DNA of 6,064 nt, taken from NCBI RefSeq assembly GCF_003334385.1, contig NZ_QOWN01000078.1; one strand, given 5' to 3'. Of this stretch, positions 3,001 through 6,000 are shown piece by piece. The stretch is from Escherichia coli (GTDB lineage Bacteria > Pseudomonadota > Gammaproteobacteria > Enterobacterales > Enterobacteriaceae). Position 1 is the first letter of the stretch, and every line of letters begins with the position of its first letter. Made by a program: the position numbers.

Positions 3001-6000
3001 AAAAGAGCTGTTCGGCGGGGCAATTAAACGCCCGTGAGAGTCTGAAATAACCGCAAGCCGGAGATCAGCATCGGTCACCACAGCAGCCACTGCTTTGGCG
3101 GTACCAGTTTGTACACTTGCTTCCGGCTGGTACCGCTATTTTTACAAAACAGAGAAGAGCATCACCGGACGACGGGCTCATAACCCAATCCACCCGGGCG
3201 GCTGCCACCGCAGGTGTTCTTCTCTGTTTTGTGGAGAAACCAACCGACCTTGCAGGGTCGATATGATGAGGAGCAGCAAAATGGCTAGCGAACGCAGTAC
3301 TGATGTGCAGGCATTTATCGGGGAGCTGGACGGCGGCGTATTTGAAACCAAAATCGGCGCAGTTCTCAGTGAAGTCGCTTCCGGTGTGATGAACACGAAA
3401 ACCAAAGGTAAGGTCTCGCTCAACCTGGAAATCGAACCGTTTGATGAGAACCGTGTGAAAATAAAACACAAACTCTCATATGTTCGCCCGACTAACCGCG
3501 GGAAAATTTCTGAAGAAGACACCACCGAAACGCCGATGTATGTCAATCGCGGTGGTCGCCTGACTATTCTACAGGAAGACCAGGGACAATTACTGACTCT
3601 TGCCGGTGAACCTGACGGAAAACTCCGCGCAGCAGGTCATTAATATCGTTCTTAATTAACTGATTATTTATCTCATCACTGAATATCTTAATATAGTGAG
3701 GACTTATTATGTCTCAGAACTTAGACGCAACCGCAATTAATCAAATCCATGCCCTTATTTCTGCTCAGGGTGTTAATGAAATTATCAGTAAGATTGGTGC
3801 CGATGCTGTGGCATTGCCTGAGAATTACCGCATTCATGATCTGGAAAAATTTAATTTAAATCGTTTCCGTTTCCGTGGTGCGCTTTCCACTGCCAGCATC
3901 GATGACTTTACCCGTTATTCTAAAGATCTTGCAGATGAAGGCACCCGCTGCTTTATCGATGCTGATAATATGCGTGCCGTCAGTGTGCTTAACCTGGGTA
4001 CTATTGATGAACCAGGTCACGCAGATAACACCGCCACTCTCAAACTGAAAAAGACAGCACCGTTCTCTGCCCTGTTGTCTGTTAACGGCGAGCGTAACTC
4101 CCAGAAATCACTGGCAGAATGGATTGAAGACTGGGCCGACTACCTTGTGGGCTTTGATGCTAATGGTGACGCCATTCAGGCAACAAAAGCGGCTGCGGCA
4201 ATTCGTAAAATCACGATTGAAGCAAACCAGACCGCTGATTTTGAAGATAATGACTTCAGCGGCAAACGCTCCCTGATGGAATCTGTCGAAGCGAAGACCA
4301 AAGACATTATGCCAGTGGCATTTGAATTTAAATGCGTTCCGTTTGAAGGTCTGAAAGAACGTCCGTTTAAATTACGCCTCAGCATTATCACTGGCGATCG
4401 TCCTGTACTGGTTCTGCGCATTATTCAGCTGGAAGCAGTGCAGGAAGAAATGGCTAACGAATTTCGTGATCTGCTTGTTGAGAAATTCAAGGACAGCAAA
4501 GTAGAAACCTTTATTGGTACTTTCACCGCCTGATTTCATTACTGCAAATGCCCCTGCGGGGGCATTTATGGAAACGTAATTGACTCAATAATCGCCGGAT
4601 GGTGAGGGCTTCCTTTTACCAGAATTCAGCGCGGTGCAGCGCATATACGTGGAGAACAAAATGTCATTTATTAAAACTTTTTCCGGGAAGCATTTTTATT
4701 ATGACAAGATAAATAAAGATGACATCGTTATTAACGATATCGCGGTTTCCCTTTCAAATATCTGTCGCTTTGCCGGTCATCTTTCTCACTTCTACAGCGT
4801 CGCCCAACATGCGGTGCTTTGCAGCCAGCTGGTGCCGCAGGAATTTGCTTTTGAAGCGTTAATGCATGATGCAACAGAAGCGTATTGCCAGGACATCCCA
4901 GCTCCACTGAAACGCCTTCTTCCTGACTATAAACGGATGGAAGAAAAAATAGACGCCGTAATCCGTGAGAAATACGGGTTACCTCCTGTTATGAGCACGC
5001 CAGTGAAATATGCCGATCTCATTATGCTGGCAACCGAACGTCGCGATCTCGGGCTTGATGATGGCTCTTTCTGGCCTGTACTGGAAGGTATCCCGGCGAC
5101 AGAGATGTTCAAAGTTATTCCACTGTCACCAGGCCATGCCTACGGGATGTTTATGGAACGTTTTAACGAGTTATCGGAGTTACGCAAATGCGCATGAATG
5201 TTTTCGAAATGGAAGGGTTTCTTCGCGGGAAATGTGTACCACGAGATCTGAAAGTGAATGAAACAAATGCTGAGTACCTGGTACGTAAATTCGATGCGCT
5301 TGAAGCTAAATGTGCGGCACTGGAAAACAAAATAATACCAGTGTCAGCTGAACTGCCGCCAGCAAATGAAAGTGTTCTGTTATTTGATGCTAACGGAGAA
5401 GGCTGGCTAATTGGCTGGCGTTCTCTCTGGTACACCTGGGGACAAAAAGAAACCGGAGAATGGCTGTGGACATTTCAGGTCGGGGACCTTGAAAACGTCA
5501 ATATCACTCACTGGGCAGTAATGCCGAAAGCACCGAAGAATAAAAAATGAGCGTGATAAAAACTCATACAGGAATTGTTATCACCCGAGACGGTCCGCAG
5601 GTAAAAAAACTGCACCAGACAAAGCGGATGTGGGTCGTCGGAAAAAACGAGTTTTACCACAAAGAAACCGGACGCCGCCACTTTGCAGAAAATACTCGCC
5701 GCCGACTGCTGATCGATACCATCAAGCCTATCGAGGTGAAGCATGTTTAAACAGAACGAAAAATCTATCGCTCAAATTGCTGAGTATATCCCGCGTGCGT
5801 GCCGGGATATGCAGTTGCAGGAAGCCAAAGCACGCCTGGAGAAAAAAATTGCGCTCTATATCGATGACGGCTGTGATGCCGCCGTTCTTAACGCGGCGTT
5901 CGCGCCAGCTCTTAACAGTCATACGCGAAAGTCTTTTTTTTCGTGCATCACAGCGCAGATCCGTAAAGGAGGCAACCAGTGAGCAACATTAACTATCAGG

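What the first reader, a model, noticed from the sequence alone, without database searches (positions are those of the whole stretch)
3097..3143. Strong terminator immediately upstream of yfdP implies antitermination-dependent expression of the accessory operon
A perfect 10-bp GC-rich stem plus T5 run sits 138 nt upstream of the yfdP start. I found no good sigma-70 promoter between it and yfdP, so yfdP-yfdS are probably expressed by read-through from the PL-like promoter. That would require an antitermination mechanism, yet no N-like gene is visible in the window. Alternatively the hairpin keeps the accessory genes silent in the lysogen and they are switched on only after induction.
Basis: seen in the sequence. 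Interest (0 to 1): 0.5.

Follow-up and report, generated by a model that had tools for sequence, protein, structure and literature searches.

The report
Terminator of a phage tRNA-like RNA
The hairpin is real, but it is best read as the built-in stop signal of a small tRNA-like RNA cassette (STnc100 family) that sits between the prophage's early-left promoter and yfdP; nothing here shows that a special antitermination system exists.

Summary
A perfect 10-bp stem (3098-3107/3127-3136) extends to 14 bp, has a 15-nt loop and is followed by T5 (3139-3143). Folding energy is -22.5 kcal/mol (z = -3.9). No promoter-like site lies between it and yfdP, and no N-like protein is encoded in the window.

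The hairpin is not a free-standing barrier. It closes a structured RNA at 2936-3085 that scores 92 bits against a covariance model built from unrelated phages. In phage SfV the same RNA plus the same hairpin matches Rfam STnc100 end to end. In ST64B and about 15 other lineages a different hairpin followed by a T run occupies the same place. In one phage a real tRNA-Arg replaces the RNA core between the same flanks.

A 25-bp hairpin (3139-3237) that includes the T run always follows and covaries.

"Strong" is not supported: a classical terminator score is about -1, which is borderline.

No put-like RNA or second core copy was found. The core's 5' flank is boxA-like, which is an untested lead.

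Whether yfdP and the genes beyond are expressed by leaky read-through or by active antitermination remains open. This phage group lacks N, a gap already noted in the literature.

The parts
1866..2558 (+). cI-like repressor gene (XRE/S24), transcribed towards the leader
   Evidence: ORF; PHROG transcriptional repressor / CI-like; RefSeq annotation of a 99% identical locus
2579..2600 (+). Terminator of the cI gene: 7-bp stem, 4-nt loop, TTTT
   Evidence: Terminator scan; -11.8 kcal/mol and borderline score
2614..2666 (+). Early-left (PL-like) control region. Operators TTGCATATCTCGCAA (2614-2628) and TTGCATAATGCGCAA (2638-2652). Best promoter candidate is TTGCAT (2638-2643), 17 nt, TATCTT (2661-2666), with a start near 2674
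   Evidence: Read from the sequence. ST64B has the same layout and heteroimmune relatives have PL in the same position. It matches only 7 of 12 consensus positions and the scan does not call it, so the assignment rests on position and is an inference
2710..2895 (+). Module 1: a conserved structured non-coding segment of unknown role
   Evidence: About 80% identical to P1 71010-71194 (just 3' of trnI) and to O157 typing phage 9 (just 5' of tRNA-Arg). 14 predicted pairs keep pairing through changes on both sides in a 3-sequence alignment
2936..3085 (+). STnc100-family, tRNA-like RNA core. Closing helix 2950-2958 with 3076-3084. Hairpin 2962-2977. Hairpin 3057-3075. Loop-loop pairing 2968-2972 with 3065-3069. 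The 5' flank UGCUCUCA (2940-2947) is boxA-like
   Evidence: 92.2 bits, E about 1e-19, against model R1 built without window-like sequences. On 73 distinct sequences 97% of cells pair, 12 pairs change on both sides, and 0 of 500 shuffles reach this. The SfV and ST64B counterparts hit Rfam STnc100. The window itself gives no Rfam or tRNA hit
3096..3143 (+). The hairpin of the finding: 14-bp stem (perfect 10-bp core), 15-nt loop, U5. It is the intrinsic-terminator-type 3' end of the RNA cassette
   Evidence: In SfV it aligns to the terminal hairpin of the STnc100 model. Hairpins of other sequence sit at the same position in relatives
3139..3237 (+). Hairpin 2: 25-bp stem (3139-3163 with 3213-3237). 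Its 5' strand begins with the terminator's U run and its 3' strand ends in GUGGAGA. The apex is conserved and C-rich (3176-3196)
   Evidence: -49 kcal/mol. Present in 29 unique modules of five sequence classes with compensatory changes. A role as an RNase III-type processing site is an inference
3269..3643 (+). yfdP ribosome-binding site (GAGGAG, 3269-3274) and coding sequence (3281-3643), first gene of the early-left operon (yfdP-yfdQ-yfdR-yfdS and onwards, to xis in mEp460)

Best explanation
The hairpin is the Rho-independent terminator that closes a non-coding RNA cassette in the roughly 600-nt leader of the prophage's early-left operon. The cassette consists of a structured tRNA-like RNA of the STnc100/PasD family (2936-3085), a short linker and this hairpin with its U5 run. 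RNA polymerase starting at the PL-like promoter (near 2674), or reading through from the cI gene, transcribes the RNA core and a large share of it stops at 3139-3143. This gives the RNA its 3' end and limits transcription into yfdP-yfdQRS and onwards to xis. The polymerases that do not stop make the operon mRNA. In those read-through transcripts the U run and the next 20 nt pair with 3213-3237 to form a 25-bp duplex, which probably serves as an RNase III-type processing site separating the RNA from the mRNA. Shown here: the hairpin's anatomy, its membership of the cassette, its conservation by position and by pairing, the lack of a downstream promoter-like site, and the lack of N and of put. 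Inferred: that it terminates in vivo, that read-through is passive rather than factor-dependent, and the processing role of hairpin 2.
For: Anatomy and stability are given. The upstream core is a real structured RNA: 92 bits against a model built from other phages, with covariation statistics. SfV 2836-3051 matches Rfam STnc100 over model positions 1-206 (39.5 bits, E 2.5e-7), and the model's terminal hairpin falls on the same hairpin. ST64B has the STnc100-like core followed by a different hairpin, GUCGGCGUC...GACGCCGAC, then CUUUUU, at the same place. In 57-67 of 87-88 unique family members a hairpin plus T run follows the core, with at least 15 different stems, against 3.4% at random positions. 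One-sided G-C to G-U changes keep the stem within the window class. In O157 typing phage 9 a real tRNA-Arg replaces the core between the same 5' flank and the same kind of terminator. In heteroimmune relatives (L109) PL abuts the core directly, so the PL transcript begins with this RNA. No promoter-like site lies in 3143-3281. The leader ORFs match no protein family. The terminator score is borderline, which fits partial termination. YfdQRST overexpression blocks replication initiation (PMC4776307), which gives a reason to damp this operon.
Against: No transcript data were available, so neither termination nor read-through is shown. The window's core gets no Rfam hit, and the SfV and ST64B hits are below Rfam's gathering score. 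A 15-nt loop is atypical for efficient terminators. In an equilibrium fold of the whole PL transcript the terminator stem has probability 0.007, because its loop and 3' arm can pair with module 1. That partner is absent from 31 of 40 loci with the same terminator. The early-left operon carries xis in mEp460 and xis and int in SfV, and it lies behind at least this terminator. A phage lacking N might therefore be expected to have an active way through.
Confidence: 0.6

Rival explanations
1. The hairpin terminates efficiently, and expression of yfdP through xis needs a processive antitermination system acting on PL transcripts. With no N protein, the modifier would be a cis RNA (the tRNA-like core acting like HK022 put), a boxA/Nus-type complex, or an unrecognised phage protein.
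For: No N-like or antitermination family appears among the window's proteins. mEp460 has only a Q-like late antiterminator. Specialists note that ST64B-like phages lack N and guess at a put-like RNA (PMC12315714). The core lies between PL and the terminator, and in L109-type phages it starts at about +3 of the PL transcript, as putL does in HK022 (PMC9378689). HK022 also has hairpin and T-run sequences right after putL. The 5' flank of the core resembles boxA: UGCUCUUU in the family, UGCUCUCA in the window. The comparison with boxA rests on my memory of the rrn consensus.
Against: There is no sequence similarity to putL or putR. BLAST gives only chance words and nhmmer returned no hit, and a search of phage genomes with putL finds HK022-, HK639- and phiEt88-type phages but none of this group. 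mEp460 has a single core copy and none in the right operon. The same core occurs in virulent T1-like and Vi1-like phages and in P1 next to tRNA genes, often with no terminator after it. A contig that is probably phiEt88 carries both a put-like element and a core. Relatives of the core (PasD, STnc100) are described as discrete prophage sRNAs, and PasD was found by Hfq RIL-seq. BoxA complexes are established against Rho-dependent termination (PMC7665894), and an effect on intrinsic terminators is not assumed here. The boxA-like flank is missing in L109-type leaders.
Confidence: 0.25
2. The hairpin does not terminate transcription to a useful degree. It acts mainly as a 3' protective or Hfq-binding hairpin of an RNA that is released from a long PL transcript by processing.
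For: The loop is long and the terminator score is borderline. A 25-bp duplex suited to RNase III lies immediately 3' of it. tRNA-like cores are typically released by processing.
Against: A T run of 4-8 follows the stem within 0-2 nt in every lineage, although the stems differ. A purely protective hairpin does not need that. The Rfam STnc100 model ends with the hairpin and U run.
Confidence: 0.08
3. yfdP has its own promoter downstream of the hairpin, so the hairpin simply insulates two independent transcription units.
For: Weak or activator-dependent promoters escape consensus scans. The window's own PL candidate matches only 7 of 12 positions.
Against: No promoter-like site lies on the + strand in 3143-3281. 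Almost the whole interval is taken up by hairpin 2 and a further small hairpin, both conserved as RNA structures.
Confidence: 0.05

Closest known systems
STnc100 (Rfam RF02076) and the related PasD sRNAs of lambdoid prophages
   Same: All share a closing helix UGGUG...CACCA around internal hairpins, a linker, and a terminal GC-rich hairpin with a U run. The SfV and ST64B counterparts of this locus hit the Rfam model. All are prophage-borne.
   Different: The window's variant has different internal hairpins (GCGCAGGCUGAUGCGC and GCCGGAGAUCAGCAUCGGU) and is not detected by the Rfam model. It lies in the early-left leader, not near Q and the lysis genes where STnc100 and PasD are described. The family also extends to P1 and to virulent phages next to tRNA genes.
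Phage tRNA gene cassettes ending in a Rho-independent terminator
   Same: In O157 typing phage 9 a tRNA-Arg sits between the same 5' flank (AAGUGCUCUCAGCGUU) and the same type of terminator, GGCGG...CCGCC then CUUUUUACAG. The core has tRNA-like proportions: a long end-to-end helix, a stem after 2-3 nt, a 5-bp stem abutting the 3' strand, and pairing between the two loops.
   Different: ARAGORN and the Rfam tRNA model do not accept the core. It has no anticodon arm and no CCA end, and carries a variable insert of 40-200 nt.
HK022 put RNAs (cis-acting antiterminator RNAs of an N-less lambdoid phage)
   Same: Both are found in a lambdoid phage without N. Both are structured RNAs just downstream of PL and followed by terminator-like hairpins.
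   Different: There is no sequence similarity. There is one copy instead of two. The size (150 nt against 70 nt) and fold differ. No functional evidence exists for the core.
Lambda early-left leader: N/nutL antitermination past tL terminators, and the RNase III site in the N leader (from my own knowledge)
   Same: Both have a long untranslated leader after PL, terminators before the recombination and excision genes, and a long duplex upstream of the first gene.
   Different: There is no N gene and no boxB hairpin with an N-type loop. The boxA-like motif is degenerate in the window.

Membership tests
Rho-independent (intrinsic) terminator | GC-rich stem of at least 5-10 bp | tested here: met
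   Perfect 10-bp stem, 14 bp with G-U pairs, -22.5 kcal/mol, z = -3.9
Rho-independent (intrinsic) terminator | Short loop (usually 3-8 nt) | tested here: not met
   The loop is 15 nt. This is why the scan misses the hairpin. Family members have loops of 3-47 nt
Rho-independent (intrinsic) terminator | U-rich tract directly 3' of the stem on the transcribed strand | tested here: met
   UUUUU at 3139-3143 follows A3138 directly, and there is no T run on the other strand. T4-T8 is found in relatives
Rho-independent (intrinsic) terminator | Classical discriminant score clearly positive | tested here: inconclusive
   d is about -1.2, the same as the cI terminator's -1.1. The formula was recalled from memory and used with modern energy parameters
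Rho-independent (intrinsic) terminator | Transcripts end there in vitro or in vivo | not testable with these tools
   No transcript data were available
STnc100 / PasD RNA family (RF02076) | Score at or above Rfam's gathering threshold (47 bits) | tested here: not met
   The window gives no hit even at E up to 10. SfV scores 39.5 bits and ST64B 35.1 bits, both below threshold
STnc100 / PasD RNA family (RF02076) | Shared architecture: closing helix UGGUG/CACCA, internal hairpins, terminal hairpin with U run | tested here: met
   Model R1 scores the window at 92 bits, SfV at 36 and ST64B at 44. Pair statistics are and the window-SfV alignment
STnc100 / PasD RNA family (RF02076) | Accumulates as a discrete sRNA in cells (PasD was found by Hfq RIL-seq) | not testable with these tools
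   Known only from the literature on relatives
HK022-type put antiterminator RNA | Sequence and two-stem similarity to putL or putR | tested here: not met
   BLAST gives only chance words and nhmmer returned no hit. Phage-wide BLAST with putL finds no relative of this phage
HK022-type put antiterminator RNA | A copy downstream of each early promoter | tested here: not met
   mEp460 has one core copy, in the left operon only
HK022-type put antiterminator RNA | Read-through of downstream terminators that depends on the RNA and on the beta-prime zinc-binding domain | not testable with these tools
   Needs genetics or in vitro transcription
Lambda N / nut antitermination | N-like arginine-rich protein gene just after PL | tested here: not met
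   The leader ORFs match no family and the window proteins are not antiterminators. mEp460 is annotated with only a Q-like protein
Lambda N / nut antitermination | boxA plus boxB in the leader | tested here: inconclusive
   A boxA-like UGCUCUCA lies at 2940-2947, and UGCUCUUU occurs in 9 of 50 unique flanks. No boxB-type hairpin was identified. The consensus was taken from memory

The most novel reading that the evidence does not exclude
The tRNA-like STnc100-family RNA in the PL leader is itself a cis-acting antitermination element. It would act either like put, by binding RNA polymerase, or by recruiting Nus factors through its boxA-like 5' flank. PL transcripts would then pass the cassette's own terminator and later ones, which would explain how SfV-, ST64B-, LLS- and mEp460-type lambdoid phages manage without an N protein.
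Probability: 0.1. Interest if true: 0.85.

Novelty: new variant of a known kind. Interest (0 to 1): 0.45.

Why it matters
How lambdoid phages of the SfV, ST64B and mEp460 type transcribe their early-left operon without an N protein is an open point that specialists have noted (PMC12315714). This work pins down what lies between PL and the first gene. It is a conserved three-part RNA module (tRNA-like core, terminator, long duplex) that can be tested directly with reporter fusions and Term-seq. It also shows that STnc100-type prophage sRNAs belong to a much wider family. That family is interchangeable with tRNA genes in phage cassettes and is present in P1 and in T1-like and Vi1-like virulent phages, and one subtype is not captured by Rfam. 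If the terminator only attenuates transcription, the finding is an ordinary piece of phage operon design.

Tried and rejected
- **Rfam on the window.** Nothing was found in 2600-3300. The link to STnc100 came only through SfV and ST64B.
- **ARAGORN.** No tRNA was found in the window.
- **K-12 CPS-53 as a source of transcript knowledge.** Rejected, because homology to K-12 starts only at the yfdP ribosome-binding site and the hairpin is absent there.
- **put RNA.** No similarity. My first three script attempts failed because the HK022 file was not in the sandbox.
- **Coding reading of the leader.** The ORFs 2655-3023(-) (mEp460 gp37) and 2638-2892(+) match no PHROG family and RefSeq does not call them. 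Rejected.
- **Own promoter for yfdP or for the core.** None was found (and reading of 2860-2950).
- **Long-range antiterminator pairing.** Module 1 can pair with the terminator loop and 3' arm, and this is favoured at equilibrium by 6 kcal/mol. I judged it incidental, because the same terminator occurs in 31 of 40 loci without module 1 and because the module 1 segments are used in their own conserved helices.
- **svsR sRNA of SfV-like prophage NC-SV.** It lies at the 3' end of cI and is not this element.
- **PasB.** It lies among structural genes and is not this locus.
- **Literature search by sequence strings.** Nothing relevant.
- **C4 antisense RNA as a regulator of the GUGGAGA motif.** Its loop matches the ant ribosome-binding site instead (reading). 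Dropped.

Full report
**Setting.** The window is the immunity region of a lambdoid prophage of the mEp460, SfV and cdtI type. It is 99% identical to phage mEp460 and to many E. coli chromosomes.
- On the minus strand lie a cro-like gene (1508-1768), a cII-like ymfL gene (964-1515) and a Rha/antirepressor ORF.
- On the plus strand lie a cI-like repressor (1866-2558) and its small terminator (2579-2596).
- Two operators of the form TTGC-N7-GCAA follow (2614-2628 and 2638-2652). They overlap the best early-left promoter candidate, TTGCAT-17-TATCTT (2638-2666).
- About 600 nt with no credible gene come next, then yfdP (3281), yfdQ, yfdR, a yfdS-like gene and more.
- The promoter matches only 7 of 12 consensus positions, so I assign it by position. 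ST64B has the same layout, and heteroimmune relatives have a clear PL at the same place.

**Observation.** The hairpin is as described.
- GCGGTACCAG (3098-3107) pairs perfectly with CTGGTACCGC (3127-3136). Wobble pairs and a U-A pair extend the stem to 14 bp (3096-3109 with 3125-3138). The loop is 15 nt and TTTTT follows at 3139-3143.
- Folding gives -22.5 kcal/mol with z = -3.9, and no shuffle out of 200 does as well.
- No promoter-like site lies between it and yfdP.

**What it belongs to.** The leader is a mosaic of non-coding modules that recur in other phages.
- Homology to SfV starts at the base of the hairpin, at about 3096.
- In SfV the stretch 2836-3051 matches Rfam STnc100 over the whole model (39.5 bits, E 2.5e-7, below the gathering score of 47). 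The model's terminal hairpin and U run fall on this same hairpin.
- ST64B has the same gene layout (cI, an 800-nt gap, then yfdP-like sb37) and an STnc100-like core (35 bits). A hairpin of a different sequence follows it there: GUCGGCGUC, 43 nt, GACGCCGAC, then CUUUUUACA.
- The window gives no Rfam hit. It does share the 5' box AGCGUUGUGGUGAAUGCG and the 3' box CACCACA with SfV.

**Family survey.**
- A scan of viral contigs with the 15-mer GTTGTGGTGAATGCG returned 120 stretches.
- 88 unique sequences carry the core. 67 of 87 have a hairpin followed by T4 or more within 170 nt, and at least 15 different stems are used.
- With stricter rules the count is 57 of 88, against 3.4% at random positions.
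- I built a covariance model from 21 diverse cores, leaving out window-like ones. It scores the window's 2936-3085 at 92 bits, with E about 1e-19.
- On 73 distinct matches, 97% of cells pair and 12 of 24 pairs change on both sides. No shuffle out of 500 reaches this, and the slid controls collapse. This alignment was fitted to the model, which favours the structure.
- The structure is a 9-bp closing helix, two 5-bp hairpins and a 5-bp pairing between their loops (GCUGA with UCAGC). That loop pairing covaries to GUCGA with UCGAC in two lineages.

**tRNA connection.**
- The same core lies in long non-coding units next to tRNA genes in T1-like and Vi1-like virulent phages.
- It occurs three times in P1, right after trnA and trnT.
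- In O157 typing phage 9 a real tRNA-Arg sits where the window has the core. It has the same 5' flank (AAGUGCUCUCAGCGUU), the same kind of linker, and a GGCGG...CCGCC-CUUUUUACAG terminator.
- I therefore read the core as a tRNA-like RNA, and the hairpin as the terminator of a phage tRNA-type cassette. The tRNA likeness is an inference from position and proportions. ARAGORN and Rfam do not call it a tRNA.

**Downstream partner.**
- A 25-bp hairpin (3139-3163 with 3213-3237, -49 kcal/mol) follows directly. Its 5' strand begins with the terminator's U run.
- The tandem arrangement is present in 29 unique modules of five sequence classes, with many compensatory changes. The 3' strand always ends in GUGGAGA.
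- It can form only in read-through transcripts. A duplex of this length suggests RNase III processing, as in the lambda N leader. That comparison is from my own knowledge, and the role is an inference.

**Strength.**
- The d'Aubenton-Carafa score I computed is about -1 (formula from memory). This is borderline and equal to that of the cI terminator.
- The stem forms with probability near 1 in transcripts starting at 2936 or later. At equilibrium in the full PL transcript a long-range alternative with module 1 is favoured.
- That partner is missing in 31 of 40 loci with the same terminator, so I treat the alternative as incidental.

**Antitermination.**
- No protein in the window matches an antitermination family. 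mEp460 has only a Q-like protein.
- Casjens and colleagues report no N homologue in LLS, whose early-left operon is closest to ST64B, and suggest a put-like RNA (PMC12315714).
- I found no put similarity and only one core copy in mEp460. A contig of the same length as phiEt88 (so probably that phage) carries both put and the core.
- In L109-type relatives PL abuts the core, so the PL transcript begins with this RNA, as it does with putL in HK022 (PMC9378689).
- A boxA-like motif precedes the core in about half of the lineages.
- These points keep an active mechanism possible, but they do not support it over leaky termination.

**Verdict.**
- The element is the terminator of an STnc100-family, tRNA-like RNA cassette in the early-left leader.
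- The claim that it implies antitermination is not established.
- YfdQRST overexpression inhibits replication initiation (PMC4776307). Damping this operon, and backing up the weak cI terminator, is therefore a sensible role.

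Noticed in passing
window 419-607 (minus strand): A C4 antisense RNA (419-506, 81 bits) and an isrK RNA (531-607, 62 bits) lie inside the long ORF that RefSeq annotates as a Rha-family regulator (up to 966, minus strand). This looks like a P1/P7-type c4-icd-ant immunity module downstream of the cII-like gene. The C4 loop CUCCGUUGAC is complementary to GUCAACGGAG just upstream of the ATG at 363 (minus strand).
   Followed up: partly
window 2710-2895: A second conserved non-coding module lies here. It is about 80% identical to P1 71010-71194 (immediately 3' of trnI and upstream of ban) and to O157 typing phage 9 (immediately 5' of tRNA-Arg). 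14 predicted pairs keep pairing through changes on both sides. Its function is unknown.
   Followed up: partly
L004 (phage P1) 1061-1133, 1294-1410, 1555-1693, + strand: Three copies of the tRNA-like core (24.6, 78 and 44.5 bits) follow trnA and trnT in the P1 ban operon. The first two lie antisense to the annotated genes plp and upl, and the third lies in the gap after upl. Those two ORFs may not be real genes.
   Followed up: no
L005 (O157 typing phage 9) 2725-2900: A real tRNA-Arg occupies the exact slot of the core, between the same 5' flank and the same kind of terminator. tRNA genes and the tRNA-like core therefore appear to be interchangeable cassettes.
   Followed up: partly
window 2940-2947, and the 5' flanks of family members: The flank just 5' of the core resembles boxA. 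It reads UGCUCUUU in 9 of 50 unique flanks and GCUCU in 27 of 50, and UGCUCUCA in the window. In T1-like phages the same flank can pair with an upstream complementary segment, so the conservation may be structural instead.
   Followed up: partly
window 3176-3196: The apex of hairpin 2, CUCAUAACCCAAUCCACCC, is C-rich and G-poor. It is conserved even in lineages whose stem sequence differs. It could be a Rho-loading or base-pairing site. The rest of the leader upstream of the terminator is G-rich.
   Followed up: no
window 3115-3138 with 2795-2812 and 2736-2742: The terminator loop and 3' arm are complementary to two segments of module 1. At equilibrium this beats the terminator by about 6 kcal/mol. 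It is probably incidental, because most loci with this terminator lack module 1. The loop sequence CUUGCUUCCGG is itself conserved.
   Followed up: yes
window 973-1052 (minus strand): A hairpin ending in CUGUGGAGAAACUAACGCAUG sits at the end of ymfL, just before the ATG at 967. It carries the same GUGGAGAAAC motif as the 3' end of hairpin 2 on the other operon. Here the GGAG is the ribosome-binding site and is paired with an upstream CUCC.
   Followed up: no
L018 1619-1676 and SfV L007 2289-2585: In some SfV-like loci a type A core is cut off after about 90 nt by the gene for SfV orf33 (MKVQILNNN...). A complete type B core with its terminator follows. This looks like a small inserted gene inside the RNA cassette.
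   Followed up: no
window about 2480-2600: A published sRNA, svsR (C0293-like), is reported at the 3' end of the cI gene of an SfV-like prophage (PMC12803456). I did not check whether this window has a counterpart.
   Followed up: no
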